Below are positions 1,491 through 36,502 of a DNA stretch of 64,000 nucleotides, in pieces. The notes under the pieces are model-generated. The model was given only the letters and a program-made list of their open reading frames with translations. It was not told the origin of the DNA and made no database searches. The DNA is taken from NCBI GenBank assembly GCA_964345045.1, contig CAYFPM010000002.1, forward strand, positions 140,330 through 204,329, written 5' to 3'. The stretch is from an uncultured Gammaproteobacteria bacterium. Lineage in GTDB: Bacteria > Patescibacteriota > Patescibacteriia > Magasanikbacterales > UBA922. The position numbers were made by a program, and so were the translations under genes. Numbering within the stretch: position 1 is the stretch's first letter; each line of letters starts with the position of its first letter.

Positions 1491-1561
1491 GTAGGCAGGA
1501 GGCAACAGGTAGTAGAAAATAAAAAAATACTATTGCCTAAATTCTACTGCCTCCTGCCTAC
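1491..1561. repeat. intergenic palindromic element gtaggcaggaggca ... tgcctcctgcctac (family member a)
   Basis: Perfect 14-nt inverted repeat flanking an A/T spacer that contains tactattgcc. Related copies occur at 13346, 17741, 20744 and 36487. Confidence 0.6.
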
Positions 1562-1577
1562 AAAGTATACCAAAAAT

Positions 1578-2042
1578 CTACTTATCTAACGAATATCTAA
1601 TGCGTTCCATAGCAATACCAGCCGCTACGCTTACGTTTAGACTCTTTTTTTGTCCAAGCATAGGAATATGTACCACCTTGTCACACATCTGCAAAACTTT
1701 TTTGTCTACTCCTTCTACCTCGTTGCCCACTACCAAAGCAACCGGCTTTTTAAATTCTACTGAATTTATCTCTACGCTGTTTTCACTTTTTTCGAGAGCC
1801 ACTATTTCAAAACCTTGCTTTCGCAGTTTTTCCAAGACCGGTTTTGTATACTTTTTCTTCTCCCAAGGGATCCATTGTTCTGCTCCCAAAGAAACTTTGT
1901 CTATCTGAGGTTTGGGGGGCGAAGCAGTGTAGCCTAGTAAATAAAGTTTATCAACACCAAAAGCATCGGCAGTCCGAAACATGGCACCTACATTGTGAGC
2001 CGATCTAATATTTGGCAAGATTAAACAAAAATCTTCTTTCAT
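1578..2042 (-). CDS. SpoU/TrmH-family RNA 2'-O-methyltransferase (SPOUT)
   Basis: Motifs ILPNIRSAHNVGAMFRTADAFGV, LVVGNEVEGV and VHIPMLGQKKSLNVSVAAGIAM. Start chosen at MKEDF. The longer ORF to 2102 adds a hydrophobic extension that is probably spurious. Confidence 0.7.
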   Translation of the reverse strand: MKEDFCLILPNIRSAHNVGAMFRTADAFGVDKLYLLGYTASPPKPQIDKVSLGAEQWIPWEKKKYTKPVLEKLRKQGFEIVALEKSENSVEINSVEFKKPVALVVGNEVEGVDKKVLQMCDKVVHIPMLGQKKSLNVSVAAGIAMERIRYSLDK

Positions 2043-2148
2043 AATATCTAATATTAACCATACCAAAGCACAAAAAGCAAGTAAGAACCCATAAAAAAAC
2101 AAGAGACTCTAATCTCTTGTTTTTTATTTCTTATAAAAGTTCTTCTAG

Positions 2149-3531
2149 CTAATTGTCTATCTTTTGCATTTGTTTCACTTCTTTTATCTTTTTCACTGCC
2201 GGTTTTTTCTCATTAATTTTTTTGGCCTTTTCTCTAGCATCTTCCAATTTCTTTTTGTCTGCTTCGCGTTTGTTCTCTACTTTCTTTTTTGCTCTTTCCA
2301 AAGCCTTTTTGGCAGCTTCTTTTTTATCCTCATCTTCTATATTTTCTAGTTTGTTTTTAGCTCTTTCTATAGTTTTTTGTTTTACTTCAGCCTTATTTTC
2401 TATAACTTTTTTCTTAAGCTCTGTTTTGTTTTCTATATCTAGACCTCGTTCTTTTATTTCTGATTTTACTTCTTTTTTGATCTTATTTTTTATAACTCTT
2501 TCTTTTACATTTTCCTTACGGTTTTCTTTTCTTTCTTCATTTACCTTTTTCAATTTGTCGGTGGTAGCGTTCAAAATTCTCAAACGCTTTTTGGCCTCTT
2601 CATCTCCTTCGGCAGCTCTTTCTTGCAAATTTTCTTTTTTGGCACGGTATTCTACTCTAATTTCGTGAACTCTTTCTTTTTTCTTATCTCTCAATTCTTG
2701 TAATTCTTCTCTGGCACTTTCGTCTCCTTCTTTGGCTGCTTGCAGTAGAGTATTTCTTTTTTCTCTATACTCTTTTACAGCTTCGGCGTGTTTTTCTACT
2801 CTTGTCTTTACATCTTGCAAATGTTCTCTAACTCTTTCTGGAACATTTTCATTATCAATGGCATTTAGCAACCGACGAGCTCTTTCTTTTTGATTATCAC
2901 GAAGTTGTTCAAATCTTTCTCTTTTTTCTTCTGGCAAACGGTCTTCTACTTTGTCCAAAATTCTCTCACGTCTTACCTGGTGGGTAGCAATATTTTTTAT
3001 CAATCTCTCAACTCTTTCACCACCATTTTCCAAAAAATCATCTTTCCTTTCTTCTACTCTGGCCATAAATTGGTTGGCTCTCTCTATCATGGCTTCGGCT
3101 CGCTCTTGCATAGCCGGGTTATCAATTTTTTCAGAAAGTTTTTCTGCAATTTTAATTCTTTCTTCGGCAAATTTTATTTGTTTTTCTGCTTTTTTGACTG
3201 GATCAAAAGTTACAGCCAAACTAACTCTTTCTCTTACATTTCTCCAAAATAATCCAAACCCAGATGGAGCTGTTTCTACTTCTTCTATTTCCAAACCTTC
3301 TAATTCTTCTTCACCAATTTCTTCTTCCAATTCCTCTTCTATCTCTGCTGCCGCTGCATCATCTTCTGCTATTGCAACAACTTCTACTTCTGCAGTTGTT
3401 TCTACTTCGAGAGAAGTCTCGTCTGTTTCTGTTTGTGCCAAAGCTGGAGCAACAAACAACAATGAGATAATAAATGCTACTACCATAAGTAGCCAAAAAT
3501 TCTTCAAACTCTGCGTCATATTTTTATACAT
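2149..3531 (-). CDS. secreted K/E-rich coiled-coil protein (signal peptide plus long charged low-complexity region)
   Basis: N-terminus MTQSLKNFWLLMVVAFIISLLFVAPALA, followed by E/K/R-rich heptad-like sequence over about 400 aa. Confidence 0.55.
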   Translation of the reverse strand: MYKNMTQSLKNFWLLMVVAFIISLLFVAPALAQTETDETSLEVETTAEVEVVAIAEDDAAAAEIEEELEEEIGEEELEGLEIEEVETAPSGFGLFWRNVRERVSLAVTFDPVKKAEKQIKFAEERIKIAEKLSEKIDNPAMQERAEAMIERANQFMARVEERKDDFLENGGERVERLIKNIATHQVRRERILDKVEDRLPEEKRERFEQLRDNQKERARRLLNAIDNENVPERVREHLQDVKTRVEKHAEAVKEYREKRNTLLQAAKEGDESAREELQELRDKKKERVHEIRVEYRAKKENLQERAAEGDEEAKKRLRILNATTDKLKKVNEERKENRKENVKERVIKNKIKKEVKSEIKERGLDIENKTELKKKVIENKAEVKQKTIERAKNKLENIEDEDKKEAAKKALERAKKKVENKREADKKKLEDAREKAKKINEKKPAVKKIKEVKQMQKIDN

Positions 3532-3578
3532 TAATAATATATATACATTATAATACTTTTACGCAAATCAAGAAAGAA

Positions 3579-3607: not shown

Positions 3608-4588
3608 ATGTACATGAAACTATCAAAATATCTCCGTCAATTCCTAGAGTATCTAGAGATTGAAAAAAATCGTAGCCACAAAACCATTGAAAACTATAAT
3701 TTTTATCTTAGTCGCTTTTTGGATTGGTTTGGAGACAAAGATCCAGGAAAAATCGATATTGAATCAGTCCGCCAATATAGATTATGGTTGAATAGACTAA
3801 TTGATGTACACGGAGAACCTCTAAAGAAAAATACTCAAAATTATCACCTAATTGCGCTTCGATCATTTTTGAAATATCTAACAAAACAAGATGTAAAAAC
3901 CATGGCTCCAGAAAAAATTGAGTTAATGAAAATGCCAGACAGAGAAGTCACCTTTCTCGAAGGAAGTGATTTGAATAGAATCTTGGAAGCCCCCTTGATT
4001 GTTTACAAAGATGCTACAGCCGGTCAAATCCAGGCAAAATATCGCGACAAAGCCATCTTGGAATTACTATTCTCCACAGGCTTGCGTGTATCGGAATTGG
4101 CTAATTTGAAAAAAGAAAATGTTAATCTAAAGAAAGATGAGTTTACAGTAACAGGAAAAGGAAGGAAATCTCGAGTAGTCTTTTTGTCCGAACAATCCAG
4201 GTACTGGTTAAAAAAATATTTAGAATCTAGAAAGGATCTTAACCCTTATTTATTTATTTCTCACGACAAAAGAAGCAAACACGAACGTGGGGTAAAAAAA
4301 TCAGGAGGCAAAATGCAATCGGATGAACAACCCATAACATCAAGATCTATCCAAAGACTAGTAAAAAAATATGCCAAAGCAGCTGGTATCACCAAACCGG
4401 TTACTCCACACACATTGCGTCACTCTTATGCTACCGATCTACTCCAAAACGGAGCCGATATCCGCAGTGTTCAAACTATGCTTGGCCACTCTTCTATCAC
4501 CACTACCCAGATTTATACCCACATTACAGACAAAGAGCTAAGAAATATTCACAAAAAATTTCATGGTAAAAAAAGAGACGAAGATTGA
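3608..4588 (+). CDS. xerD: tyrosine site-specific recombinase XerC/XerD family
   Basis: N-terminal SAM-like domain (ENYNFYLSRFLDWF) and C-terminal catalytic motifs LRHSYATDLL and GHSSITTTQIYTH (R..HxxR..Y). The likely leaderless start is at 3614. Confidence 0.8.
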   Translation: MYMKLSKYLRQFLEYLEIEKNRSHKTIENYNFYLSRFLDWFGDKDPGKIDIESVRQYRLWLNRLIDVHGEPLKKNTQNYHLIALRSFLKYLTKQDVKTMAPEKIELMKMPDREVTFLEGSDLNRILEAPLIVYKDATAGQIQAKYRDKAILELLFSTGLRVSELANLKKENVNLKKDEFTVTGKGRKSRVVFLSEQSRYWLKKYLESRKDLNPYLFISHDKRSKHERGVKKSGGKMQSDEQPITSRSIQRLVKKYAKAAGITKPVTPHTLRHSYATDLLQNGADIRSVQTMLGHSSITTTQIYTHITDKELRNIHKKFHGKKRDED

Positions 4589-5852: not shown

Positions 5853-7421
5853 ATGAGAACTAATATGAATACTTTATTCAATAATAAAATAATAAAAGGA
5901 TTAGTCTTGCTACTAATAGTCGCTTGGTATGCTCTTCTTTTGATAAGACCAGTTGAAATAGCCAGTGGGGATCTGGGCAGACATTTAAAAAACGGCGAAA
6001 TAATTCTAGATATTATAGAAGGAGCAGACAAAAAAGCTATTTTTTCTAGTAATTTTTACTCCTATACTCATCCTGATCATCCTTTTGTAAATCATCATTG
6101 GGGTAGTGGCCTGATTTTTTATATCATCTATCAATCTTTTGGTTTTTTGGGTCTACAAACTTTTTTTATTTTGCTAAGCATAACCACCTTGGCTATTTTT
6201 TTTAGAATTTCTCAAAAAGAAAGTAATTTTTGGATAGCAGCTTCTTATCTTATATTTTTAATGCCTTTACTAGCAGAACGTCGACAAATAAGACCCGAAA
6301 CTTTTAGTTACCTATTTTTGGCTATTTATATTTTTATTTTACTAAAATACAAAAATTCTAAGCAACGTAGACTTTTGTATGCCTTGCCCCCCATTATGTT
6401 ACTTTGGGTTAATACTCATATTTTCTTTGTTTTTGGTTTTTTCTTAATTGTGGTGTTTTTACTAGAATCAATTTGGCAAAAAGAAACTGTAAACAAAAAA
6501 AACTTTTTAATAACTTTGTTTGCTGCTGGTGTGGCCAGTCTATTTAACCCCTTACGTTTACAAACTATTTTTTACCCTTTTAAAATTTTTAATAATTTGG
6601 GATTAAAAATAAAGGAGACTCTTTCTATAAAAGAAGCTGCTGGGACAGTTGTCCCAATGGATAGGATTTTTGTATTTGTTTTTAGCCTGGTTCTTTTTTA
6701 TATAATTTTGTTTATACTTCTAAAAAAGAAAAACTTTTCCAAAATCAAGCCAAGACTAATGCTTGTCCTAATCACTACGATCTTTGCCCTGCTAGCTTAT
6801 AAAATGATCCGTAATCTAACCTTGTATGCTTTATTTGTTTTGCCAATTCTTTCCTACCTTTCGTATGGATTAATCGAAACCTACAAAAACAAATTTAATA
6901 AAGAAAAAATGGCTCTCTATCTTTTTGCATTCTTTCTGCTTGTCACTATTTTTGTAAACAAAACCAGAATTCCAAATGCAATAGAAGGCCTTGGATACAA
7001 TTTGCCAGAGGGTAGCCAGGCTGCCGGGGAATTTGTTGCTGAAAATAATATAAAAGGACCCCTCTTTAACGACTTTGACAGTGGCAGCTATGTAATATAT
7101 CATCTTTACCCTAGGCTAAAACCATTTGTAGACAATCGCCCAGAGGCCTATCCTAGCCAATTTTTTAGAGATACCTATATACCACTTAGAAACGATATAA
7201 AAATGTGGAAAGAAACAGATGCCGAATACAATTTCAATGTAGTGTTACTATCTCTAAAAGATAAGTCCAGACCAAATGCTAGATTTGTTGGTTATTTTTT
7301 GGATAATAAAGATTGGACTACAATTTTTGCCAATGACAAACATATAGTTTTTGTAAAAAATAATGAAGGGAACAAAAGTATAATAGAAAAATTTTCTCTC
7401 GACAAATATGAATCTGAATAA
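5853..7421 (+). CDS. polytopic membrane protein, possibly a GT-C-type glycosyltransferase or mannosyltransferase-like protein
   Basis: 522 aa with more than 10 predicted TM helices in the N-terminal two thirds and a C-terminal soluble domain. The family is not resolved. Confidence 0.45.
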   Translation: MRTNMNTLFNNKIIKGLVLLLIVAWYALLLIRPVEIASGDLGRHLKNGEIILDIIEGADKKAIFSSNFYSYTHPDHPFVNHHWGSGLIFYIIYQSFGFLGLQTFFILLSITTLAIFFRISQKESNFWIAASYLIFLMPLLAERRQIRPETFSYLFLAIYIFILLKYKNSKQRRLLYALPPIMLLWVNTHIFFVFGFFLIVVFLLESIWQKETVNKKNFLITLFAAGVASLFNPLRLQTIFYPFKIFNNLGLKIKETLSIKEAAGTVVPMDRIFVFVFSLVLFYIILFILLKKKNFSKIKPRLMLVLITTIFALLAYKMIRNLTLYALFVLPILSYLSYGLIETYKNKFNKEKMALYLFAFFLLVTIFVNKTRIPNAIEGLGYNLPEGSQAAGEFVAENNIKGPLFNDFDSGSYVIYHLYPRLKPFVDNRPEAYPSQFFRDTYIPLRNDIKMWKETDAEYNFNVVLLSLKDKSRPNARFVGYFLDNKDWTTIFANDKHIVFVKNNEGNKSIIEKFSLDKYESE

Positions 7422-8516: not shown

Positions 8517-9011
8517 TTACCGATTACACACGGCAGGATCACTAAAGTTACCATTGGCACAAGGGTTGTATTCTTCTGTGTCGGAGTAATGGAAAAAACC
8601 TTCTTCCGGCTCTCCTACAGATCTTCTAACCGTTCTATCTACAAATATCAATATAGAATAGGCACTAGCAGCTACCAAAACTCCAATCACAGCCGTACGC
8701 AAAGTCTTTTTGCCTTTTTCTACTTTTTGTTCGTCTCCACCAGAAGTTAAGATAAGATAACCGGCATACACAGTATAACCAATAAATAGAATTCCAATAA
8801 AACCAAGTAAGCGACGAATAATCTGGGCAGCAACCAATCTAGGATCTTCTGCTATGCCAAAATCGGCTCCTCTATTTCCAGCAAAGGCTCCGGTTTGTTG
8901 ATTCAAATCTTCGGCAAAGCTGGCCGCATTTACAAAATCCGAAGTTGCTAAAAAAAACAAACCAGCCAAAGCAAAGCTAAACAATAATATTTTTTTCTTT
9001 TTGCTAAACAT
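8517..9011 (-). CDS. pilin-like secreted protein, TrbC/VirB2-like two-helix core (paralog 1) with a short Cys-containing C-terminal tail
   Basis: Signal peptide. Core LLGFIGILFIGYTVYAGYLILTSGGDEQKVEKGKKTLRTAVIGVLVAASAYSI. Tail ends ...NPCANGNFSDPAVCNR. Confidence 0.6.
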   Translation of the reverse strand: MFSKKKKILLFSFALAGLFFLATSDFVNAASFAEDLNQQTGAFAGNRGADFGIAEDPRLVAAQIIRRLLGFIGILFIGYTVYAGYLILTSGGDEQKVEKGKKTLRTAVIGVLVAASAYSILIFVDRTVRRSVGEPEEGFFHYSDTEEYNPCANGNFSDPAVCNR

Positions 9012-9016
9012 AGTTA

Positions 9017-9460
9017 TTAGGGATTCGATCTATTTTGTTCCAAAGCTTCTCTCACGGCTTCTCTAGGATTTTGCTTTTGCAAAGAACCTTGCACCGCGCT
9101 ACTTATAAACCTAGTAATAGAGTAAGCCAAAAGAACTATAATAAGACCAATTATGGCTCCGCGTACAGTTTTGGTGGCTTTTTCTACCTTACTTTCGTCT
9201 CCACGAGAGGTAATATACCAATAGCCGGCCATAAGTACCAAAACTATAAAAAAAGTTCCTACAAAGCCAAGTAAGACTTGTACAATCTCGGCAATGATTA
9301 TCCTAGGGTCAGCCGCACCTCCAAAACCGGCTCTATTGGCTCCGGCTGTAATCTGACTACCGACTTGGCTACCCAAATCTCCTGCCATAGCTGGAGAAAA
9401 GAAAAACAAAGAAAGTGATAAAGAAAAAAACAAAACCAAAATCACTAATTTATTACGCAT
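9017..9460 (-). CDS. pilin-like secreted protein, TrbC/VirB2-like core (paralog 2)
   Basis: Signal peptide. Core LLGFVGTFFIVLVLMAGYWYITSRGDESKVEKATKTVRGAIIGLIIVLLAYSI. Confidence 0.6.
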   Translation of the reverse strand: MRNKLVILVLFFSLSLSLFFFSPAMAGDLGSQVGSQITAGANRAGFGGAADPRIIIAEIVQVLLGFVGTFFIVLVLMAGYWYITSRGDESKVEKATKTVRGAIIGLIIVLLAYSITRFISSAVQGSLQKQNPREAVREALEQNRSNP

Positions 9461-9462
9461 AC

Positions 9463-10188
9463 TTATAATCTAATCAAAGCTTGGTTATTGAAATTACAGG
9501 TCCAACCAACCCCTGGAGAATTACTCTGGCACCAAGTTCTACAACCAGAAGCGTCTTGAATATTGGTATTTGGTCTTTGGGTTCCTCCCCCAGTATTTCT
9601 CACCCATTCACAAACACCCGAAGTACTTTGCAAGATTTGACCATTAAACTCACAGTTCCAACCGGCTGCACTAACAGGATTCCCTACACACCAAGCCTGA
9701 CACTCGGCAGAGTTGGCAATTGGAGTGCTTGGGGTTTGGCTACCACTGCCTTGGGTGTTTACCCAACGACAACTACCACTACCACCAGCCGGAGAGCTAC
9801 TCCCCGTAGAACCACCACTAGCTCTATCTATTAGTCTAGGAACTACAAAAGAAGTAATGCTATAGGCTCCTACAGTAATTATAAGTCCAATTATCGCTGC
9901 TCTTATAATATTTTGAGCTTTGCTTATTTTGTCTTCTTCGCCTCTCGCAGTCATCCACATAAAACCAGCATATACCATAAGGATCATAAAGATTACCCCC
10001 ACAAAAGACAAGGCCGCTCGAACTATGTCTCCCAAAGTTTCGGCAAAACTAGTTTCTGTGGTGTTGGGGTCAAAACCAGCTTCTTTGGCTGCTTCTCTAG
10101 CCAGTCCAGTGCCCAAATCAATAGCCAAAGTGCTTTGTGGCAAAAATAATACCAAACCAAGCAAAACAAAAAGTAAAAACTTTTTCAT
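9463..10188 (-). CDS. pilin-like protein with a C-terminal tandem Cys-rich module (paralog 3)
   Basis: Core ALSFVGVIFMILMVYAGFMWMTARGEEDKISKAQNIIRAAIIGLIITVGAYSI. A C-terminal module of about 45 aa is repeated twice (CxWVxNTxG...CxxWCxxN...GWxCxFNxQ). Confidence 0.6.
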   Translation of the reverse strand: MKKFLLFVLLGLVLFLPQSTLAIDLGTGLAREAAKEAGFDPNTTETSFAETLGDIVRAALSFVGVIFMILMVYAGFMWMTARGEEDKISKAQNIIRAAIIGLIITVGAYSITSFVVPRLIDRASGGSTGSSSPAGGSGSCRWVNTQGSGSQTPSTPIANSAECQAWCVGNPVSAAGWNCEFNGQILQSTSGVCEWVRNTGGGTQRPNTNIQDASGCRTWCQSNSPGVGWTCNFNNQALIRL

Positions 10189-10321
10189 ACAAATAAATCA
10201 ATTCCCTTGCCCTGTTATTAATATTAAGGGCAAAGTATAAAATAAATATTTTTTAAACACTCATTAAATCTAATTCAATCCCTTTTCTGCGGAATCTTTA
10301 TAAATCAATGAAATCAGTGTT

Positions 10322-10360
10322 TAAAAAACCAAACCTGATTACAAGCATACACCAGGTTTA
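10322..10360 (-). terminator. intrinsic terminator after pilin paralog 4
   Basis: Minus-strand hairpin aaacctg...caggttt followed by a U-run (an A-run on the plus strand at 10323-10328). Confidence 0.55.
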
Positions 10361-10372
10361 GCCTGCCTATTA

Positions 10373-10744
10373 TTACGAACCACCTAATCTTCCAGTAACA
10401 AACACAGTGATTGCATAAGCTGATACTACTATAACCAGACCAATAATAGTACTGACTATAACTTTTTGCGCTTTTTGAACTTGTTCTTCGTTGCCACGAG
10501 CTGTCATCCAAAGATAACCTCCATAAACCATTAAGAGCAAAAATATAATACCCACCAGTGTAAGCGCTGCGTTTATAATTCTACCAGTAGCAGTTTCCAG
10601 ATCCCGAACATCGTCTACCCCGGCTCTACTACCAACATTTTCTAGTGGACTACCACCACCAAAAGCATCTTGTAGACCACCAGCCAAAGTCACACTAGGA
10701 AAAAGTAATAACGCAGTTAAAATTATTATTGAAAATTTTTTCAT
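10373..10744 (-). CDS. pilin-like secreted protein, TrbC/VirB2-like core (paralog 4)
   Basis: Start at MKKFSII. Core LTLVGIIFLLLMVYGGYLWMTARGNEEQVQKAQKVIVSTIIGLVIVVSAYAI. Confidence 0.6.
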   Translation of the reverse strand: MKKFSIIILTALLLFPSVTLAGGLQDAFGGGSPLENVGSRAGVDDVRDLETATGRIINAALTLVGIIFLLLMVYGGYLWMTARGNEEQVQKAQKVIVSTIIGLVIVVSAYAITVFVTGRLGGS

Positions 10745-10758
10745 ATAGCTTAATAATA

Positions 10759-11127
10759 TCAATTTGTAAGTCTACCGACAAATAGTGTAATAGCATAAGC
10801 CATTACTACCACAGCTGCCCCAATTATAGCAGCTATTACAGTTTTTTTACCCTTTTCTATTCTTTCTTCGCTACCTCTAGCTGTCATCCATATAAAACCA
10901 CCATAAATAGTAAGAATAAAGAAAAATAATCCTACAAGCGAAATCCCCGCACGTAGTCCATCGGCGACAATGTTTGTGACACTAGATCTTTCTACTCCAG
11001 CTCTCCCAGCTACGTTTTCGGTAAAACCAGTGGCATTATTTATTTTATAACCAGCCAAAACAATATTTGGCAGAAGCCAAAAAGCCAAGACTAAAGTATA
11101 AAACAAATGATTAACAATCTTGGGCAT
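10759..11127 (-). CDS. pilin-like secreted protein (paralog 5)
   Basis: Core ISLVGLFFFILTIYGGFIWMTARGSEERIEKGKKTVIAAIIGAAVVVMAYAI. Confidence 0.6.
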   Translation of the reverse strand: MPKIVNHLFYTLVLAFWLLPNIVLAGYKINNATGFTENVAGRAGVERSSVTNIVADGLRAGISLVGLFFFILTIYGGFIWMTARGSEERIEKGKKTVIAAIIGAAVVVMAYAITLFVGRLTN

Positions 11128-11129
11128 AA

Positions 11130-11693
11130 TTAATTACAATTGGAAGCCGATATATTTGGGTTCACAGTAGCTGTTAAGCCAGGACCTCCCTGACACAAAC
11201 TGCTAGCATTACTTGGAAAATAAGGACCTCTTACACATTGAACTGCTCCACCTGTAGCTCCAGTGGTACAAACCACACAACAACCAGCGTCTACCGCCGT
11301 AGTCCCAGCTCCAGGTGCTGGGGTTGTTGGTTGCGTAGCTGTACCTACACTTTGGAATACAAATCTGGTAATAGCATAAGAAGCAATCACCAAAATAAGA
11401 CCAATAATGGCAGCTGTCACCGTACTAAGTGCTTTTTTACTTATTTCTTCATTGCCTCTGGCTAGCATCCAACTAATACCCGCGTAGATCATAAGTATAA
11501 AAAACAGAACCCCGATTAGAGTAAGGCCAGCGCCAATTACATTTCCTACAATATCGGCTAGACTCCCCCTAGCTGTGGTATCTAGCCCAGATTCCTCTGC
11601 AGTTTGTTCCAATCCATAACCAGCCAAGGCCAAAGACGGAAAAGCTACAGCCAAACCAGCCAAGAAACCAAACAAATAATTTTTCTTTTTCAT
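11130..11693 (-). CDS. pilin-like protein with a Cys-rich C-terminal domain (paralog 6)
   Basis: Core LTLIGVLFFILMIYAGISWMLARGNEEISKKALSTVTAAIIGLILVIASYAI. Tail ...GCCVVCTTGATGGAVQCVRGPYFPSNASSLCQGG...SNCN. Confidence 0.6.
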   Translation of the reverse strand: MKKKNYLFGFLAGLAVAFPSLALAGYGLEQTAEESGLDTTARGSLADIVGNVIGAGLTLIGVLFFILMIYAGISWMLARGNEEISKKALSTVTAAIIGLILVIASYAITRFVFQSVGTATQPTTPAPGAGTTAVDAGCCVVCTTGATGGAVQCVRGPYFPSNASSLCQGGPGLTATVNPNISASNCN

Positions 11694-11704
11694 ATAATTA
11701 AAAA

Positions 11705-12319: not shown

Positions 12320-12329
12320 GGATCAAAAA

Positions 12330-12716: not shown

Positions 12717-12824
12717 AAAGATTGATTTTGGTGCAAAAGAAACAAAAATTATCTCTTTAGCACCACCATCAAAATACAAAGGGCAGAGATCTCCACGTGG
12801 GGTTAGACCCCTGCCCAATGTAAG

Positions 12825-13244: not shown

Positions 13245-13345
13245 AGTCTCACCTCCCTTCCGTTATAAATGTTTTTATTCATATAGCAATAGTATACGTG
13301 AATAAGCCTAGTTTTACAAAATAGATGTGGACAGTGATATAGGGT

Positions 13346-13416
13346 TTAGGCAACAGGCATTAGTAACTAGAAAAACACTATTGCCTATTCCCTATTCCCT
13401 ATTGCCTGTTGCCTAA
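13346..13416. repeat. intergenic palindromic element ttaggcaacaggcat ... attgcctgttgcctaa (family member b)
   Basis: 15-nt inverted repeat. The centre contains tactattgcc and three cctattcc direct repeats. Confidence 0.55.
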
Positions 13417-14210: not shown

Positions 14211-14219
14211 ACAATTAAC

Positions 14220-15071: not shown

Positions 15072-15083
15072 GTTTTAATATTT

Positions 15084-17740: not shown

Positions 17741-17800
17741 ATTTAGAAAATAGGCAACAGGCAGGAGGCAATAGTATTTTTTTCAGTTTTACTATTGCCT
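17741..17800. repeat. intergenic palindromic element ggcaggaggcaatagta ... tactattgcctcctgcc (family member c)
   Basis: 17-nt perfect inverted repeat around a T-run. Bidirectional terminator-like. Confidence 0.6.
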
Positions 17801-17822
17801 CCTGCCTAACCCCTACATCCTA

Positions 17823-20707: not shown

Positions 20708-20743
20708 ACAATAAATTAATAAACCGTGAACAACCCCAAACAC

Positions 20744-20775
20744 TACTCCCTGTTGCCTCCTGCCTACCCCCTCCC
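20744..20775. repeat. half-copy of the ggcaggaggca palindromic element (family member d)
   Basis: Contains tgttgcctcctgcctaccccctcc. The tgcctaccccct tail also occurs at 36487. Confidence 0.4.
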
Positions 20776-20781
20776 AACTAT

Positions 20782-24784: not shown

Positions 24785-24835
24785 AAGTCGTTGTTCTTTG
24801 TAGGAGAAATGCTCAGCATTTATTTCGCCGTTTGA

Positions 24836-24893
24836 CACTGTCTTTATCAAGCTTTGGTAAAGATTGTGCCCAACAGCGGACTTGGCACCCGCA
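24836..24893 (+). promoter_or_regulatory. conserved leader element B (dyad TTATCAAGCTTTGGTAA plus gtgcc/ggcac hairpin)
   Basis: Paralogous to leader A. The dyad is at 24844-24860. A hairpin GTGCC-N13-GGCAC follows. Confidence 0.45.
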
Positions 24894-26732: not shown

Positions 26733-26829
26733 ATACAATTCTACAAAATATTAATATCATCACTACTTTCAAATAAGATCCAAAATTTGTTTAAATGTTT
26801 GTATGTTTAAATGCTTAAATATTTATACC

Positions 26830-27153: not shown

Positions 27154-27160
27154 AATAATA

Positions 27161-27227
27161 GTTCACGGTTCATGGCCAATCGCCAATATAAAATTACTGG
27201 CTATGAACTATTGGCTACGAACTAAAA
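27161..27227. repeat. intergenic repeat catggccaatcg...ggctatgaac...gaactaaaac (copy 1)
   Basis: Related copy at 30270-30336 after pilB. Confidence 0.45.
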
Positions 27228-28542: not shown

Positions 28543-30270
28543 ATGTTGTCGCAGGACTTACTACTAGATCTACTAAAATCCAAATACAATCTAAAAGCTC
28601 CCGAGATAAAAAACTACCAAACCAAGGCTCAAAAAATAAATAAAAGTTTGGAAGATTACCTTGTAGCAGAAGGAGTAATAGACGAAGTAGCCCTATATAC
28701 AGAAGCTGCCAAACTAATGGAAGTCCCTTTTACTATCTTAAAAGGCAAAGAAATAAAAAAAGAGGTTCTAAACATGGTACCGCCAAGTTTGGCTCAAACT
28801 CACAAAATAGTCGCTTTTGAAGCTAGCAAAACCGAAATTAGCTTGGCCATGCTCGACCCGCTAGACATACAAACCATAGAATTTATCCAAAGAAAAACTG
28901 GTTTAACCCCTGTAGCCTACTTGACTACACCAAGTGACATAAAAGATTCTCTGCGTCGCTACCATGCTGACTTAAACGAAGATATGATGGTAGTCCAACT
29001 AAGTAGCGAATCTGCCAAAGACGAAGGAGATCTAAAAAAAGTAGCCGAAGAATTACCTATAATTAATATAGTAAATAGTATACTAGAACATGCTGTTTTT
29101 GAAGGTGCCAGTGATATCCATATAGAACCACAAGAAAAAGAAGTATCTGTACGTTATCGAGTAGATGGAGTGTTAAAACAAGTCATGACTCTACCCAAAA
29201 AAGTACAAGCCGGTATTGTGGCTCGTATCAAAATTTTGTCTAAATTAAAAATAGACGAACATATGGTACCCCAAGACGGTAGGTTCAAAATACAAATCCA
29301 AGAAGACAAATTATCTTTTCGTGTTTCTATTATCCCAGTTTACGATGGCGAAAAAATAGTAATGCGTCTTTTGCGAGAAGATCAAAAACCCCTATCTCTA
29401 GACCAACTAGGATTTTTGCCAGGACCAAAAAAGCTGGTAGAATCTGCTATTCGTAGACCACATGGCATGGTGCTGGTTACCGGACCAACCGGATCTGGTA
29501 AGACCACTACCCTATACTCCATTTTGTTTATGTTAAACAAACCTGGAGTAAATATTTCTACCATCGAAGATCCTATCGAATACCATGTAAAAGGCATCAA
29601 CCAAAGCCAAATTAATCCTCGTGCCAAATTTACCTTTGCTTCTGGCCTGCGCGCCTTTTTGCGTCAAGATCCAGACATTATCATGGTTGGAGAAATCCGC
29701 GACGAAGAGACTGCAGAAGTTTCTATTCACGCCGCTATGACCGGTCACTTGGTACTCTCTACCCTCCATACCAACGATGCCCCTACCACCTTGCCTCGTC
29801 TTATGGATATGGGAGTTCCTCCATTTTTAGTTGCTTTTACCACCAATGTAATTGTAGCGCAAAGATTGGTAAGAAAAATCTGCAAAGACTGTAAAAAAGA
29901 ATTTACCTTGGATTCAAAAACCATAGAACAATTAGAAAAAATCCTTGACCAAAAATCTTTGCCTACCCTTTTCAAAAATCAAAATATAAAATTAAACCCC
30001 AAAGAAAAAAACTTGCAAAGCATGACATTTTATAGAGGTGAGGGTTGTAGAAAATGCAATCAATCTGGCTACAAAGGCCGAATTGGTATTTACGAAGTTC
30101 TCGATATAGACAAAGATCTGATCAACAAAATAAACCAAAGAGCCACTGCCGAAGAAATCCGCAAACACGCTATTAGCAAAAACATGATTACTATTTTGCA
30201 AGACGGCATTATAAAAGCCAAACAAGGAATCACCTCTATAGAAGAAGTCCTTCGTGTAACCAGAGATTAG
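28543..30270 (+). CDS. pilB: type IV pilus assembly ATPase (GspE/PilB family)
   Basis: N-terminal GSPII_E_N-like domains. Walker A LVTGPTGSGKTTTLYS. Asp and His boxes. C-terminal tetracysteine CRKC. Confidence 0.85.
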   Translation: MLSQDLLLDLLKSKYNLKAPEIKNYQTKAQKINKSLEDYLVAEGVIDEVALYTEAAKLMEVPFTILKGKEIKKEVLNMVPPSLAQTHKIVAFEASKTEISLAMLDPLDIQTIEFIQRKTGLTPVAYLTTPSDIKDSLRRYHADLNEDMMVVQLSSESAKDEGDLKKVAEELPIINIVNSILEHAVFEGASDIHIEPQEKEVSVRYRVDGVLKQVMTLPKKVQAGIVARIKILSKLKIDEHMVPQDGRFKIQIQEDKLSFRVSIIPVYDGEKIVMRLLREDQKPLSLDQLGFLPGPKKLVESAIRRPHGMVLVTGPTGSGKTTTLYSILFMLNKPGVNISTIEDPIEYHVKGINQSQINPRAKFTFASGLRAFLRQDPDIIMVGEIRDEETAEVSIHAAMTGHLVLSTLHTNDAPTTLPRLMDMGVPPFLVAFTTNVIVAQRLVRKICKDCKKEFTLDSKTIEQLEKILDQKSLPTLFKNQNIKLNPKEKNLQSMTFYRGEGCRKCNQSGYKGRIGIYEVLDIDKDLINKINQRATAEEIRKHAISKNMITILQDGIIKAKQGITSIEEVLRVTRD

Positions 30271-30336
30271 TTCATAGCCAATAGTGCATGGCCAATCGTC
30301 AGTAATACCGATTGGCTATGAACCATGAACTAAAAA
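30270..30336. repeat. intergenic repeat (copy 2) with perfect inverted repeat gttcatagccaat/attggctatgaac
   Basis: Shares catggccaatcg and ggctatgaac..gaactaaaa with the copy at 27161. Confidence 0.45.
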
Positions 30337-34267: not shown

Positions 34268-35392
34268 ATGGCAACGTATTTATTTCAATTAGGACGAGAA
34301 CCAAAAATTTCAACCGCGGAGATAAACGCGGTTTTTGCGCTACAAAAAATTTCTTATCTCAAAATACAAGAAACTAGCAAATTTTTAATTTTGGAAACTA
34401 GTAAAAAAATAAATACAGAAGATTTGATGCAAACTTTGGGAGGCACTATAAAAATAGGAAAGCTCTTAAACAAAAATAATGAAAAGCCAGAAGAAATAAT
34501 TGTAGAAAACATTTTGGAAAATCAACCAGAAGGTAAAATAGTTTTTTCACTAAACGAAAAAAAATTGGCTTTGAAAATAAAAAAGATGATTAAAGAAACC
34601 GGCCGCAATGTCCGTTATGTTGAGTTAAAAAATAGTGCCAGTATTTTGCACAATAATTTGTTAGAAAGAAAAAGTGATTTTACGAAAATAGATAATCAGG
34701 TATTTGTTACCGCCGTTTTGCAACCACTAGAAGAATTTGGCAAACGTGACTATGGTAAACCAGGAAGAGACAAATACAGTGGCATGCTTCCACCAAAACT
34801 ATCTAAAATAATGATAAATTTGGGGCAAGTGAATCCGGACAACAAAACTTTTTTAGATCCTTTCTGTGGCTCTGGCACAGTTTTGTTAGAAGCAGCTTTA
34901 TCTAATTTTAAAAATATTTTTGGGAGCGATATCTCGGACAAGGCTACAAAAGATAGCCAAACAAATTTGGAATGGCTTCAAAATGAATATGGAATATCTA
35001 ATCTAAGATATTCAATATCCAAAACAGATGCCACCAAAATTGATTCTGTTATCAAAACAAATTCTATAGATTTGGTAGTTTCCGAACCTTTTATGGGTAT
35101 GCCTCTACGTGGCAGCGAATCCAGAGAATTTTTATTAAAACAAGCCAAAGATCTAAAAGAACTTTATATCAAAACCTTCAAAGCTTTGCTCAAAGTATTA
35201 AAAAAAGAAGGAGTAATTGTTTTTATTATTCCTTCTTTCAGTTTTGGAAAAGAAATTATCAGGATTGATTGTACAAAAGAAATAGAAAGACTTGGTTTCA
35301 AAACTTTGCCATTTGGAGAAGACCAATCTCTACTCTACCGCCGTCCTAATCAATACGTAGGTAGAAATATTTGGCGGTTTGTAAAAAAATAA
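34268..35392 (+). CDS. SAM-dependent N-methyltransferase, Trm11/RlmL (UPF0020)-like
   Basis: Motif I DPFCGSGT. Motif IV-like VSEPFMG. The N-terminal domain is reminiscent of THUMP. Confidence 0.5.
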   Translation: MATYLFQLGREPKISTAEINAVFALQKISYLKIQETSKFLILETSKKINTEDLMQTLGGTIKIGKLLNKNNEKPEEIIVENILENQPEGKIVFSLNEKKLALKIKKMIKETGRNVRYVELKNSASILHNNLLERKSDFTKIDNQVFVTAVLQPLEEFGKRDYGKPGRDKYSGMLPPKLSKIMINLGQVNPDNKTFLDPFCGSGTVLLEAALSNFKNIFGSDISDKATKDSQTNLEWLQNEYGISNLRYSISKTDATKIDSVIKTNSIDLVVSEPFMGMPLRGSESREFLLKQAKDLKELYIKTFKALLKVLKKEGVIVFIIPSFSFGKEIIRIDCTKEIERLGFKTLPFGEDQSLLYRRPNQYVGRNIWRFVKK

Positions 35393-35459
35393 AAAAACAC
35401 TAAACCAATAGTGTTTTTATGATTTTATGATTTAATGTTTTCTTGTTTTAATGATTAAA

Positions 35460-36179
35460 TCATTTCAGCCAAAGATTATCTACTACCTGACCAACAGCAT
35501 AACCAACCACAGCAGCCAACCCTGCCAAAGTTACCATCTCCATACCAGCTTTGATCCAATTCCTCTTGGAGAATTTGGCGGTGTATACTCCTAGCAAAAA
35601 CAAACCAACCAAAGTAATAGCAATAGACAAAGCAATCGCTGTATAAATAGGAAAGATAAAATAAGCTACAAGTGGAATCGCCCCGCCAAAAATATAAGAA
35701 ATCCCCATAACAGATCCGTTTTTTAACGGCTCTTCCAATTCACTTGGGAAAATTTTCAATTCATGATAAGCCATTTCTTGCAAAAACAAATCCGGTTTTT
35801 GCGAAGCTTCTTCGGCCATTTTCTTGGACAAATCTTTTGACCAACCATCTTCTTCGTACATCTCTATTAATTCTTGTTTTTCCTCTTCTGGATATTTTTC
35901 TAATTCTTGTTTTTCTTCAAACAATTTCCTCTCGTCTACTGCTCGCACCGACTTGCTAGACAAGTACGACCCCACTCCCATAGAAATTGATTCTACCGAA
36001 ACTACAACCAATCCTACCAAGATAGTGGTAAAAGGATCCTGTGTTGCAGCGGCTACACCAGTAATGGCCCCAAGGGTAGACACCATACCATCTTCCATCC
36101 CAAAGACCAATTCCCGTATAGTAGAAGCCTTGGTACTGTTGGTGTGGTGGATGTACTCTGGGTTATGCTCTACAGGCAT
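35460..36179 (-). CDS. VIT1/CCC1-family iron/manganese transporter
   Basis: Motif ELVFGMEDGMVSTLGAITGVA. Central acidic loop and C-terminal TM helices. Confidence 0.65.
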   Translation of the reverse strand: MPVEHNPEYIHHTNSTKASTIRELVFGMEDGMVSTLGAITGVAAATQDPFTTILVGLVVVSVESISMGVGSYLSSKSVRAVDERKLFEEKQELEKYPEEEKQELIEMYEEDGWSKDLSKKMAEEASQKPDLFLQEMAYHELKIFPSELEEPLKNGSVMGISYIFGGAIPLVAYFIFPIYTAIALSIAITLVGLFLLGVYTAKFSKRNWIKAGMEMVTLAGLAAVVGYAVGQVVDNLWLK

Positions 36180-36486
36180 ATTTTTAAACTTATATAGAAA
36201 AAATTACTTCACAAGTTAACAAACCAAAGATCTAGTTTATCAAATCTGCGTAATCCAAAAAAATCAGTGCAATCAATGTTATATATAGTACACCTTACAC
36301 ACAAAAATTTAAACCCACCTATTCGGTGGGGTTGTCTAGGGTGCTCTAAACCCTGGGTTAGAAAACTTTGTTTTTAATTTTTATTTTTTAATACATCATT
36401 TTGGATAAAGATAGTTAAACATACAAACACGCGTGTTAAGAATTATTTGTAAGAAATAAAGCAAAAAACAATCTACTCACTACAAC

Positions 36487-36502
36487 CTACTGCCTACCCC
36501 CT
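36487..36502. repeat. fragment ctactgcctaccccct of the ggcaggaggca palindromic element (family member e)
   Basis: Matches the tgcctaccccct tail seen at 20757. Confidence 0.35.

What the first reader, a model, noticed from the sequence alone, without database searches (positions are those of the whole stretch)
1491..36502. Family of intergenic palindromic elements built on GGCAGGAGGCA / TGCCTCCTGCC / TTAGGCAACAGGC words
Copies at 1491-1561, 13346-13416 and 17741-17800 are complete hairpins with arms of 14-17 nt around an A/T spacer containing tactattgcc. Partial copies sharing tgcctaccccct lie at 20744-20775 and 36487-36502. All sit at the 3' side of minus-strand genes. They resemble REP-like or terminator-associated repeats, which are not commonly described for such small genomes.
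Basis: seen in the sequence. Interest (0 to 1): 0.55.

Follow-up and report, generated by a model that had tools for sequence, protein, structure and literature searches.

The report
Stop-codon-abutting palindromes of heptamer repeats
The reported intergenic palindromes are real, and each is a short inverted array of 7-base tandem repeats (UAGGCAR on the mRNA strand) starting at or just after a gene's stop codon in a small Magasanikbacteria (CPR) genome; this is a known kind of repeat that I did not find described for this lineage.

Summary
E1-E3 are strong hairpins and E4-E5 are half copies. All five are built from heptamer units with NAG every 7 nt: 9 runs of at least 5 units in the window against 0.085 in shuffles. 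Each array starts 0-17 nt after the stop codon of a minus-strand gene, and in E2 the first unit is the stop codon.

The organism is a Candidatus Magasanikbacteria bacterium. Relatives carry hairpins of the same design at the same intergenic positions, each with its own unit sequence, and one relative has none. In some relatives the stem encloses a small ORF, usually PF05635 (23S rRNA IVS protein). This resembles rRNA intervening sequences, which are stem-loops that RNase III cuts out.

Inverted arrays of the exact unit GGCAGGA also sit at gene 3' ends in Nostoc, Chloroflexales, Acidobacteriota and others.

My best reading is a genome-specific, REP-like family of heptanucleotide-repeat palindromes, the ORF-less form of IVS-like cassettes. 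They probably act as intercistronic RNA stems for processing or stability, not as classical terminators. The mechanism is inferred, not shown.

I rate it a new variant of a known kind, of moderate interest.

The parts
1485..1567 (-). E1: full palindrome between the SpoU methylase gene (1578-2102) and the 234-aa ORF (775-1479). Units on the mRNA strand are TAGGCAG GAGGCAG TAGAATT TAGGCAA TAGTATT. The stem ends 11 nt before the next ATG.
   Evidence: I2; -39.5 kcal/mol, z -7.0
13346..13416 (-). E2: full palindrome after the T4SS_pilin gene 13413-14210. The first unit TAGGCAA supplies that gene's stop codon (13413-13415). There are six NAG-N4 units in the 5' arm and about 3.5 in the 3' arm. A promoter-like TTGTAA-17-TATACT and a Shine-Dalgarno sequence for the next pilin gene follow.
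   Evidence: I7; -36.0, z -4.8
17744..17822 (-). E3: full palindrome with 19 contiguous base pairs plus an outer extension. It starts directly after the TAA stop of pilin gene 17823-18272 and ends about 12 nt before the ATG (17732) of the solute-binding-protein gene.
   Evidence: I4; -46.2, z -8.7
20739..20780 (-). E4: one-armed copy of six units (TAGTTGG GAGGGGG TAGGCAG GAGGCAA CAGGGAG TAGTGTT). It starts 1 nt after the TAG stop of the N_methyl pilin-like gene 20782-21405. There is no hairpin.
   Evidence: (z -1.4)
36469..36503 (-). E5: one-armed copy of five units (TAGGGGG TAGGCAG TAGGTTG TAGTGAG TAGATTG), in 7-nt phase with the TAA stop of the AHSA1-family gene 36508-36939. There is no hairpin.
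   Evidence: (z -0.7)
27160..27224 (-). F1: sister-family palindrome (TAGTTCG TAGCCAA TAGTTCA TAGCCAG TAATTTT / inverted partner). It fills the ssb-rpsR intercistronic gap, and its first unit contains the ssb stop codon.
   Evidence: gene order S6-SSB-S18; -19.8, z -3.7
30268..30335 (+). F2: sister-family palindrome (TAGTTCA TAGCCAA TAGTGCA TGGCCAA ... inverted partner). It begins with the stop codon of the PilB-type ATPase gene 28543-30270.
   Evidence: -24.6, z -5.3
51227..51307 (-). A palindrome of the same design built from TACGAAA units, directly 3' of tRNA-Ala (51312-51386) and upstream of ychF. The same unit occurs in relatives, at L122 294-386 and around a PDDEXK_3 ORF in L128.
   Evidence: I3; -27.9, z -6.3

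Best explanation
**What it is**
- The elements are a genome-specific family of small palindromic repeats. Each arm is a tandem array of 7-nt units: UAGGCAR on the mRNA strand and its complement in the other arm.
- The array starts at, or a few bases after, the stop codon of a gene that is followed by another gene in the same direction.
- They belong to the heptanucleotide simple-sequence-repeat class (STRR-like), here arranged as inverted arrays.
- They are the ORF-less form of a wider class of stem-loop cassettes in Magasanikbacteria. In that class the same kind of stem can enclose a small ORF such as PF05635 (23S rRNA IVS protein), DUF559 or PDDEXK_3.

**Shown**
- The 7-nt construction.
- The placement at stop codons.
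- The strength of the stems.
- The same order of variant units in different copies.
- Presence at the same intergenic positions in relatives, with a different unit sequence in each genome.
- ORF-bearing versions in relatives.

**Inferred, origin**
- Arms grow and shrink by 7-nt slippage.
- The second arm arises, and is kept matched, by strand-switch copying across the hairpin.
- Copies spread or are homogenised between sites by copying or gene conversion.

**Inferred, action**
- The elements are transcribed inside polycistronic mRNAs and fold into stems of 19-30 bp.
- These stems serve as RNase III-type processing sites and/or barriers to 3' exonucleases. This would separate the fate of the upstream cistron (pilins, SSB, PilB) from that of the downstream one.
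- They do not act as classical intrinsic terminators.
For: **Construction**
- Only periods 7 and 8 give arrays.
- NAG-N4 runs of at least 5 units number 9 against 0.085 expected.
- Across 7 Magasanikbacteria loci, period 7 gives 48 arrays, period 8 gives 18, and every other period from 4 to 12 gives 9 or fewer.
- Arrays are about 10 times denser in intergenic than in coding sequence.

**Placement**
- The heptamer phase starts -3 to 17 nt from the stop codon in E1-E5.
- F1 and F2 start with the stop codon itself.

**Stems**
- dG ranges from -20 to -46 kcal/mol, with z-scores from -3.7 to -8.7.

**Common descent of copies**
- E3 and E4 share three successive variant units (GGGGN TAGGCAG GAGGCAA). 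TAGGCAGGAGGCAA is exact at 3 loci.

**Relatives**
- L122 (solute-binding protein 65% identical) has hairpins or a half copy at the positions of E2, E3 and E4, with units UGGGUAA/UAGGUAA.
- L125, L134 and L135 have their own units.
- L127 has gaps of only 4-17 nt at the same sites.
- Similarity within a genome exceeds similarity between genomes.

**ORF-bearing versions**
- A PF05635 ORF lies between 39-nt arms (90% complementary) at the E3 position in L135. An ORF-less hairpin in the same locus uses the same unit family.
- Further cases are in L123 and L128.
- In the window, a DUF559 ORF lies between 37-nt inverted repeats, and a solo copy of that repeat sits elsewhere.

**Literature parallel:** the Coxiella 23S IVS has a 28-bp stem of terminal inverted repeats cut by RNase III, a PF05635 ORF, and 2-3 tandem heptamers whose number varies between strains (PMC4990558).

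**Other phyla:** inverted GGCAGGA arrays gave more than 118 loci where I estimated about 2 by chance. They lie 6-50 nt after stop codons, and convergent gene pairs outnumber divergent pairs 15 to 2.
Against: - No transcript data exist, so processing, stabilisation and even co-transcription are inferences.
- Across 17 hairpins, only 8 fold more stably on the sense strand than on the antisense strand. There is therefore no G-U asymmetry of the kind expected if selection acted only on the RNA. The palindromes could be purely DNA-level products.
- Half copies E4 and E5 cannot form a stem, so a stem is not required for a copy to persist.
- Heptamer and octamer arrays in general are about equally dense in co-directional, convergent and divergent gaps.
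- No PF05635 ORF is present in the window. None lies near the GGCAGGA hairpins of other phyla either, though that rests on a low-sensitivity home-made HMM.
- No transposase, target-site duplication or strain polymorphism was seen. L001-L003 are essentially identical to the window, with 1 mismatch in 20.8 kb. Mobility and slippage are therefore unproven.
- Only about 76 kb of this genome was seen, and all five copies lie in the first 36.5 kb.
Confidence: 0.45

Rival explanations
1. The elements are factor-independent transcription terminators or attenuators. The stem-loop forms in nascent RNA right after the stop codon and releases or pauses RNA polymerase, setting expression levels along the pilin and housekeeping gene strings.
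For: - The stems are very stable and lie immediately 3' of ORFs.
- E2 is followed by a promoter-like site and a Shine-Dalgarno sequence for the next gene.
- E5 precedes a 328-nt gap.
- The GGCAGGA hairpins of other phyla favour convergent gene pairs over divergent ones, 15 to 2.
Against: - No U-tract follows any stem.
- The consensus terminator scan did not flag them, while ordinary A-run/stem/T-run terminators exist elsewhere in the genome.
- E1, E3, E4 and F1 leave only 5-35 nt before the next start codon, with no room for a promoter. Efficient termination there would silence the SBP gene, rpsR and others.
- E4 and E5 have no stem.
Confidence: 0.18
2. The elements are neutral by-products of a mutational bias. 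Polymerase slippage with a preferred 7-8-nt step expands whatever short sequence lies in the tiny gaps after stop codons, and strand switching makes the inverted copy. There is no function and no movement between sites.
For: - Many different units occur within one genome and between genomes: TACGAAA, AAAGCTA, AATTTCT, TGACATT, GGAAATT with up to 30 units.
- Arrays are common in all kinds of intergenic gap.
- The two arms of E2 differ in unit number, 6 against about 3.5.
- There is no sense/antisense folding asymmetry.
- Heptamers are the commonest long simple-sequence repeats in many bacteria, and slippage has been proposed as the cause (Mrazek 2007, as summarised in PMC4679880).
Against: - Independent local slippage cannot explain identical 11-14-mers, or the same order of variant units, at 3-5 separate loci.
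- It cannot explain copies within a genome being more alike than copies at the same position in a relative.
- It cannot explain the same arm sequences around an ORF and in an ORF-less hairpin in one genome.
Confidence: 0.17
3. The elements are REP-type repeats mobilised by a Y1 (RAYT / IS200-IS605-like) transposase encoded elsewhere in the genome.
For: - They are a dispersed, genome-specific family of imperfect palindromes at gene 3' ends, with no target-site duplication.
- Four of five copies begin with GTAG (E1, E3, E4, E5). From memory, this resembles the conserved GT[AG]G head of REPs.
Against: - No Y1 transposase domain appears among the window proteins scanned, nor in the precomputed Pfam lists of the related loci.
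- The GTAG is simply part of the repeating unit.
- Classical REPs are not built from tandem heptamers.
Confidence: 0.08
4. The elements are RNA sites for an oligomeric protein that reads NAG triplets spaced by 4 nt, like HutP or TRAP. Binding to the 5' arm would keep the stem from forming and so switch expression of the downstream cistron.
For: - Every copy has 5-6 NAG (mostly UAG) triplets at strict 7-nt spacing, beginning at the stop codon.
- Two otherwise different families in this genome (E and F) share only the TAG phase.
- HutP binds three XAG motifs with 4-nt spacers in the 5' part of a terminator placed just after the hutP stop codon (PMC2425495).
Against: - No HutP- or TRAP-like protein is in the window.
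- Families in relatives use UGG, UAA or UGA units or octamers.
- The GGCAGGA arrays of GC-rich phyla have no UAG.
- The NAG phase is an automatic consequence of any tandem repeat whose unit contains AG.
Confidence: 0.05
5. The arrays act as backstops for translation. Each unit is a stop codon plus four bases, so a 7- or 8-nt period presents a stop in all three reading frames within three units. This would catch read-through and frameshifted ribosomes before the next gene.
For: - After real stop codons, in-phase runs of at least 4 stop triplets occur only at periods 7 and 8 (6 cases), and at no other period from 4 to 12.
- In E2, F1, F2 and several arrays in relatives, the real stop codon is the first unit of the array.
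Against: - In the 35 nt after stop codons, the excess of stop triplets on the sense strand over the antisense strand is not significant (305 against 263, p = 0.085).
- Some units have no stop codon (AGGCAGG, TACGAAA).
- Any ORF running into a stop-bearing array must end at its first units, so part of the pattern follows from how ORFs are defined.
Confidence: 0.05

Closest known systems
Heptanucleotide simple-sequence repeats: cyanobacterial STRR (Mazel 1990, from memory), long SSRs of Mrazek 2007, GGGNATC repeats of Xanthomonas/Nostoc (PMC4692102), TAACTGA repeats of Beggiatoaceae (PMC4679880)
   Same: - The units are 7 nt, tandem, intergenic and dispersed, and the unit sequence is specific to each genome.
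[quoted passage not shown]
- The exact unit GGCAGGA forms inverted arrays in Nostoc, Calothrix and other genomes.
   Different: - The arrays here are short (2-6 units), regularly paired with an inverted partner to give a hairpin, and start at the stop codon itself.
- The host is a CPR bacterium with a small genome and 38% GC. My literature searches found no description of such repeats in this group.
- Variation in copy number between strains, the hallmark of simple-sequence repeats, could not be observed.
REP/BIME elements of Enterobacteria and Pseudomonas
   Same: They are short imperfect palindromes in many copies, lie in 3' untranslated or intercistronic regions, form genome-specific families that evolve in concert, and lack target-site duplications. 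From memory, REPs have a known role as stabilisers of upstream mRNA.
   Different: No RAYT gene was seen. The arms are tandem heptamers, and some copies are one-armed.
23S rRNA intervening sequences (IVS) of Salmonella, Leptospira and Coxiella (PMC4990558)
   Same: - A long stem is formed by terminal inverted repeats, with or without a PF05635 ORF in the loop.
- The Coxiella IVS carries tandem heptamers, variable in number, at the RNase III site.
- In relatives of this organism, PF05635 ORFs sit inside stems of the same design at the very positions of E3 and E4.
   Different: The elements lie between protein-coding genes, not in 23S rRNA helix 25 or 45. The window copies have no ORF. RNase III cleavage was not tested.
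Correia elements (CREE) of Neisseria and similar MITE-type repeats (from memory)
   Same: They are small intergenic elements with inverted ends that are co-transcribed with neighbouring genes. Their hairpins are reported to be cut by RNase III, which changes mRNA stability.
   Different: Correia elements have defined 26-nt terminal inverted repeats and a TA target duplication. No duplication and no fixed ends are seen here.
HutP and TRAP binding sites (PMC2425495)
   Same: NAG triplets are spaced by 4 nt (HutP), in the 5' part of a stem that lies just after a stop codon.
   Different: No cognate protein was found. The motif is not kept in the families of relatives.

Membership tests
Heptanucleotide SSR / STRR-type repeats | Head-to-tail units of 7 nt | tested here: met
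   Phase-7 runs occur only at these loci. The period-7 autocorrelation peaks at E2. All copies have 5-6 NAG-N4 units.
Heptanucleotide SSR / STRR-type repeats | The same unit at several dispersed, mainly intergenic loci of one genome | tested here: met
   Five loci carry UAGGCAR units. Arrays are about 10 times denser in intergenic than in coding DNA of Magasanikbacteria loci.
Heptanucleotide SSR / STRR-type repeats | Unit number varies between strains (slippage) | tested here: inconclusive
   The only other contigs of this organism (L001-L003) are essentially identical to the window, with 1 mismatch in 20.8 kb. Unequal unit numbers in the two arms of E2 hint at slippage.
REP / BIME | Short imperfect palindromes, repeated, extragenic, with a genome-specific sequence | tested here: met
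REP / BIME | A cognate RAYT (Y1 transposase) gene in the genome | tested here: inconclusive
   None appears among about 70 window proteins or in the Pfam lists of related loci.
23S rRNA intervening sequence (IVS) | Extended stem made by terminal inverted repeats | tested here: met
23S rRNA intervening sequence (IVS) | Inserted in helix 25 or 45 of 23S rRNA | tested here: not met
   All copies lie between protein-coding genes or next to a tRNA gene. There is no rRNA in the window.
23S rRNA intervening sequence (IVS) | PF05635 ORF in the loop (in the ORF-bearing subclass) | tested here: not met
   The window loops are 7-21 nt. The feature is met in relatives L135, L123 and L128.
23S rRNA intervening sequence (IVS) | Excised or cut by RNase III | not testable with these tools
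   This needs an enzyme assay or transcript end mapping.
Intrinsic (rho-independent) terminator | Stem directly followed by a U-tract | tested here: not met
   See the sequences after the stems. The elements are not among the terminator-like sites.
Intrinsic (rho-independent) terminator | Lies at the end of a transcription unit | tested here: inconclusive
   This is plausible for E2 and E5. For E1, E3, E4 and F1 only 5-35 nt separate the element from the next start codon.
HutP-type antiterminator site | At least three NAG triplets separated by 4 nt | tested here: met
HutP-type antiterminator site | A HutP-family protein is encoded | tested here: inconclusive
   Not found in the window. The rest of the genome was not seen.
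MITE | Terminal inverted repeats plus a target-site duplication | tested here: not met
   Inverted arms are present, but no direct duplication flanks E1-E3 (read).
Integron attC site | R''/R' core sites RYYYAAC ... GTTRRRY, and an IntI integrase | tested here: not met
   The outer ends are (T)TAGGCA... / ...TGCCTA(A). The only tyrosine recombinase (3608-4588) keeps the same place in relatives that lack the elements.

The most novel reading that the evidence does not exclude
Stems built from heptamer repeats are the ends, or the landing sites, of a so far undescribed class of very small cassettes that settle exactly at stop codons.
- The cassettes are ORF-less, or carry PF05635, DUF559, PDDEXK_3 or GIY-YIG ORFs.
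- They would be found in CPR bacteria and, with the same GGCAGGA unit, in cyanobacteria, Chloroflexota, Acidobacteriota and others.
- This would imply a dedicated mechanism that makes or recognises units of 'stop codon + 4 nt'. Candidates are a templated repeat-adding or strand-switching activity, or an oligomeric protein that binds NAG-N4.
- It would give the long-unexplained bacterial heptamer repeats a mechanistic origin.
Probability: 0.12. Interest if true: 0.8.

Novelty: new variant of a known kind. Interest (0 to 1): 0.5.

Why it matters
- Heptanucleotide repeats are the commonest long simple repeats in many bacteria, yet their origin and role are unexplained.
- This case shows them in a minimal, gene-dense CPR genome, where little non-functional DNA is expected. 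They appear in a regular form: inverted arrays that begin at the stop codon.
- The same design recurs at the same intergenic sites in related species, with a different sequence in each. In some relatives it is physically joined to small ORFs of the 23S-IVS protein family.
- This links three topics that have been treated separately: STRR-like heptamers, REP-like palindromes and rRNA intervening sequences.
- It gives concrete sites (pilin genes, the rpsF-ssb-rpsR operon) where processing of polycistronic mRNA in uncultivated CPR bacteria could be tested with metatranscriptomes.

Tried and rejected
- **Rfam.** No family matches at any element. The only hit at E3 is a sub-threshold miRNA-precursor match (35.7 bits against a gathering score of 90), which is a generic hairpin artefact.
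- **Strain polymorphism.** The three other contigs of this organism are essentially identical to the window, with 1 mismatch in 20.8 kb, so they carry no information.
- **Extending the genome.** Only about 9.2 kb beyond the window start and 2.6 kb beyond its end were reachable. They hold no further GGCAGG-type copy.
- **Shine-Dalgarno idea.** AGGAGG in the arm could have acted as a hidden ribosome-binding site. I rejected this because it lies 40-70 nt from the next start codon and only about 9 of 67 genes in the window use a Shine-Dalgarno sequence at all.
- **Strand-specific RNA selection (G-U asymmetry).** Only 8 of 17 hairpins are more stable in the sense orientation, so there is no signal.
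- **General excess of stop triplets on the sense strand after genes.** Not significant (p = 0.085).
- **Restriction of heptamer/octamer arrays to gene 3' ends.** Not supported. Their density is similar in co-directional, convergent and divergent gaps.
- **PF05635 ORFs next to the GGCAGGA hairpins of other phyla.** None was found with an HMM built from five CPR sequences, which has low sensitivity.
- **Phages as carriers.** Viral contigs gave only 2 hits, against 0 for a scrambled control.
- **G-quadruplex in E4.** The G-tracts are separated by loops of 10 and 16 nt, and E5 has only one tract, so I did not pursue it.
- **Integron attC, CRISPR and MITE with target duplication.** All rejected on reading the sequence.

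Full report
**1. Checking the observation**

All five sites are present at the stated coordinates.
- GGCAGGAGGCA occurs exactly five times, at four of the loci. With up to two mismatches there are 21 matches against 8.1 expected, and no shuffle reaches 21.
- TAGGCAACAGGC and TGCCTACCCCCT are enriched to a similar degree.
- E1 (1485-1567), E2 (13346-13416) and E3 (17744-17822) are inverted repeats. Folded as RNA on the coding (minus) strand they give -39.5, -36.0 and -46.2 kcal/mol, with z-scores of -7.0, -4.8 and -8.7.
- E4 and E5 do not fold better than shuffled sequence. They are one-armed copies.

**2.

On the mRNA (minus) strand the units read as follows.

| Copy | Units |
|---|---|
| E1 | TAGGCAG GAGGCAG TAGAATT TAGGCAA TAGTATT |
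| E2 | TAGGCAA CAGGCAA TAGGGAA TAGGGAA TAGGCAA TAGTGTT |
| E3 | TAGGATG TAGGGGT TAGGCAG GAGGCAA TAGTAAA |
| E4 | TAGTTGG GAGGGGG TAGGCAG GAGGCAA CAGGGAG TAGTGTT |
| E5 | TAGGGGG TAGGCAG TAGGTTG TAGTGAG TAGATTG |

- Runs of at least five NAG-N4 units number 9 on the two strands of the window, against 0.085 in shuffles. Eight of the nine are at E1-E5.
- GCCT or AGGC repeated at a 7-nt step occurs only at these loci.
- In a scan of periods 4-12, arrays appear essentially only at periods 7 and 8.
- The hairpins are therefore inverted pairs of short heptamer arrays, and the 'partial copies' are single arrays.
- E3 and E4 share three successive variant units in the same order, so the copies descend from one another. 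They did not arise independently at each site.

**3. Placement**

- Each array begins at or just after the stop codon of the upstream minus-strand gene. The heptamer phase starts 17, -3, 0, 1 and 4 nt after the stop for E1-E5.
- In E2 the first unit is the stop codon of the pilin gene.
- The upstream genes are a SpoU methylase, two T4SS_pilin paralogs, an N-methyl pilin-like gene and an AHSA1-family gene.
- Searching for stop triplets in phase with real stop codons uncovered two hairpins of a sister family, with units TAGCCAA/TAGTTCR.
  - F1 (27160-27224) fills the ssb-rpsR gap.
  - F2 (30268-30335) begins with the pilB stop codon.
- A palindrome of TACGAAA units lies 3' of tRNA-Ala (51227-51307).

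**4. Organism and relatives**

- Pfam hits (DUF5667, an array of T4SS_pilin paralogs, type IV pilus genes) and the names attached to homologues identify a Candidatus Magasanikbacteria bacterium, in the Patescibacteria/CPR.
- Other contigs of the same population are essentially identical, with 1 mismatch in 20.8 kb.
- Gene order around the solute-binding-protein gene is conserved in relatives whose protein is 54-65% identical.

*Elements at the same positions in relatives*
- In L122 (65% identical), hairpins lie at the positions of E2 and E3 and a half copy at the position of E4. Their units are UGGGUAA/UGGGCAA/UAGGUAA around an inner stem GGAAGCGAGA...TCGCTTCC.
- L125 uses UAAGCAG units.
- L134 uses CACATAA/CACGTAA and AGCCAAT/AGTTCGG units.
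- L135 uses CATGACA and TCACCTAA units.
- L127 has gaps of only 4-17 nt at the same places.
- Copies within a genome resemble each other (local scores 20-63) much more than copies at the same position in another genome (10-24).
- The design and the sites are therefore shared, while the sequence is specific to each genome. This is the pattern expected of a repeat family that evolves in concert or turns over.

*How common such arrays are in the lineage*
- Across seven loci, period-7 arrays number 48, period-8 arrays 18, and every other period gives 9 or fewer.
- Arrays reach 30 units in L123.
- They are about ten times denser in intergenic than in coding DNA. They are not confined to 3' ends.

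**5. A link to small ORF cassettes**

- In L135 a PF05635 (23S rRNA IVS protein, Avd-like) ORF lies at the position of E3. It sits between 39-nt arms made of TCACCTAA units, 90% complementary. An ORF-less hairpin in the same locus uses the same unit family.
- Further PF05635 ORFs in L123 and L128, and a PDDEXK_3 ORF in L128, lie between arms of 34-41 nt (87-91% complementary) built from short tandem units.
- In the window itself, a DUF559 ORF (61256-61630) is inserted between rnpA and yidD. It is flanked by 37-nt inverted repeats, and a solo copy of that repeat follows the ychF stop codon.
- The Coxiella 23S rRNA intervening sequence has the same ingredients (PMC4990558):
  - a 28-bp stem of terminal inverted repeats cut by RNase III;
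  - a PF05635 ORF;
  - 2-3 tandem heptamers whose number differs between strains.
- The window elements thus look like ORF-less versions of IVS-like stem-loop cassettes, placed between protein-coding genes.

**6. The same unit in other phyla**

By my own estimate about 2 would be expected by chance.
- The hits are inverted arrays (GGCAGnn)n...(nnCTGCC)n. They occur in Nostoc, Calothrix, Chloroflexales, Oscillochloris, Acidobacteriota, Heliobacteriaceae, Gemmatimonas, Abditibacteriaceae, Bacteroidota and others, often many per genome.
- With crude ORF calls they lie mostly 6-50 nt after stop codons. Convergent gene pairs outnumber divergent pairs 15 to 2.
- Viral contigs hold only two such hairpins.
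- I cannot tell whether the shared unit reflects transfer or convergence. No control unit could be scanned in the same collection.

**7. How it most likely works**

*Shown*
- The repeat construction, the stop-codon placement and the stable stems.
- Common descent of the copies.
- Recurrence at the same sites in relatives.
- ORF-bearing versions in relatives.

*Inferred*
- Arms change by 7-nt slippage. The arms of E2 have 6 and about 3.5 units.
- The partner arm is made, and kept matched, by strand switching across the hairpin.
- Copies spread or are homogenised between sites.

*Why an intercistronic RNA role is the best fit*
- E1, E3, E4 and F1 leave only 5-35 nt before the next start codon and no room for a promoter. 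They must be transcribed within polycistronic RNA.
- Stems of 19-30 bp in that position are the kind of substrate that RNase III cuts in rRNA IVSs and, from memory, between phage T7 early cistrons and in Neisseria Correia elements. They would also block 3' exonucleases.
- I therefore favour a role in segmenting and differentially stabilising operon transcripts.

*Why classical termination is unlikely*
- No U-tract follows any stem.
- The genome has ordinary terminators elsewhere.

*Caveats*
- Sense and antisense folds are equally good overall: only 8 of 17 hairpins are more stable in sense.
- One-armed copies persist.
- There are no expression data.
- A largely neutral, selfish or mutational origin therefore remains a serious rival.

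**8. Two further readings, kept as minor rivals**

- *NAG-N4 protein site.* The NAG-N4 spacing is that of the HutP site (PMC2425495). No such protein was found, and relatives use other units.
- *Three-frame stop backstop.* Units of 'stop codon + 4 nt' give stops in all three frames. Long in-phase stop runs occur only at periods 7 and 8. The overall excess of stops on the sense strand is not significant. Part of the pattern also follows from how ORFs are defined.

**9. Comparison with known families, and novelty**

- The elements meet the definition of heptanucleotide simple-sequence repeats / STRR-type repeats, and the descriptive definition of REP-like palindromes.
- They fail the tests for intrinsic terminators (no U-tract), rRNA IVSs (not in rRNA), MITEs (no target-site duplication) and attC sites.
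- I found no description of such repeats in CPR bacteria in the searchable literature.
- I rate the finding a new variant of a known kind. The variant features are inverted heptamer arrays anchored at stop codons, recurring at the same sites in related genomes, and joined in relatives to IVS-protein ORFs.
- Interest is moderate (0.5). It would be higher if the link to cassettes, or a dedicated repeat-making or repeat-reading mechanism, were confirmed.

Noticed in passing
window 15024-15090, 26785-26825, 35409-35456: There are tandem arrays with an 8-nt period (minus-strand units ATGAAATC / ATTAAATC / ATTAAAAC, each with TGA or TAA) in three intergenic gaps. The first spans the annotated start of pilin gene 14220-15071, so that start may be miscalled.
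   Followed up: partly
window 61216-61671 and 50105-50122: A DUF559 (Vsr-like endonuclease) ORF at 61256-61630 is inserted between rnpA (61715-62122) and yidD (60912-61187). It is flanked by 37-nt inverted repeats that contain CCCCTGATAGGGG. A solo copy of the repeat lies right after the ychF stop codon.
   Followed up: partly
window about 16265-16320 and about 19235-19295 (minus strand): A roughly 50-nt repeat, ATGAC(G/T)CTT(A/G)TAACTTGACG(C)TTTTTG...GGGTC(G/A)TGTTTCAAG, occurs twice. One copy follows the stop of gene 16356-17732 and the other follows the stop of gene 19295-20707.
   Followed up: no
window 23320-23394 and 24819-24893: A 75-nt direct repeat (83% identity) contains its own palindrome (TTGGGCACAATCGTTACCAAAG...). 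It bounds a stretch of higher GC (41-44%) with several ORFs that have no Pfam match. This may be a small island.
   Followed up: no
window 8517-18272: There is a string of about 12 co-directional T4SS_pilin (PF18895) paralogs, conserved in gene order across Magasanikbacteria relatives. A solute-binding-protein gene is embedded in it.
   Followed up: partly
L129 17099-19060 (same genome, about 7-9 kb beyond the window start): Five period-7 arrays (GGGGAAA/TGGGAAA, GCGAAAA, AAGAAAC, CAGCATT) lie inside the 985-aa tRNA-synthetase class I ORF without breaking it. Heptamer arrays may also expand within coding sequence.
   Followed up: no
L129 16395-16485 (same genome, upstream of that synthetase gene): Another palindrome of heptamer units (AAAGCTA AAGGCGA AAAGCTG ... 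TAGCATT TCGCTAT TAGCTTT) follows what looks like a leader with its own terminator.
   Followed up: no
window-wide start codons: Only about 9 of 67 ATG-started ORFs have a GGAG/GAGG/AGGA/GGGG motif within 20 nt upstream. This organism seems to rely little on Shine-Dalgarno pairing. The few genes that have one include a pilin gene (12825-13244), yidD and the DUF559 ORF.
   Followed up: partly
window 51487-51613: There is a SAM-I/IV riboswitch match (45.6 bits, gathering score 41.1) upstream of ORF 51717-52649, which has no Pfam match.
   Followed up: no
L131 (2.6 kb beyond the window end): dnaA lies just past position 64000. GC skew on the plus strand is negative across nearly the whole window. 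The window therefore probably lies next to the replication origin, and the minus-strand genes run co-directionally with replication.
   Followed up: no
L123, L124, L128, L135 (relatives): The same intergenic positions in the pilin region hold different small ORFs in different relatives: PF05635, DUF559, GIY-YIG and PDDEXK_3. L125 has a separate repeat of about 100 nt at two sites, 3827-3963 and 6599-6711.
   Followed up: partly
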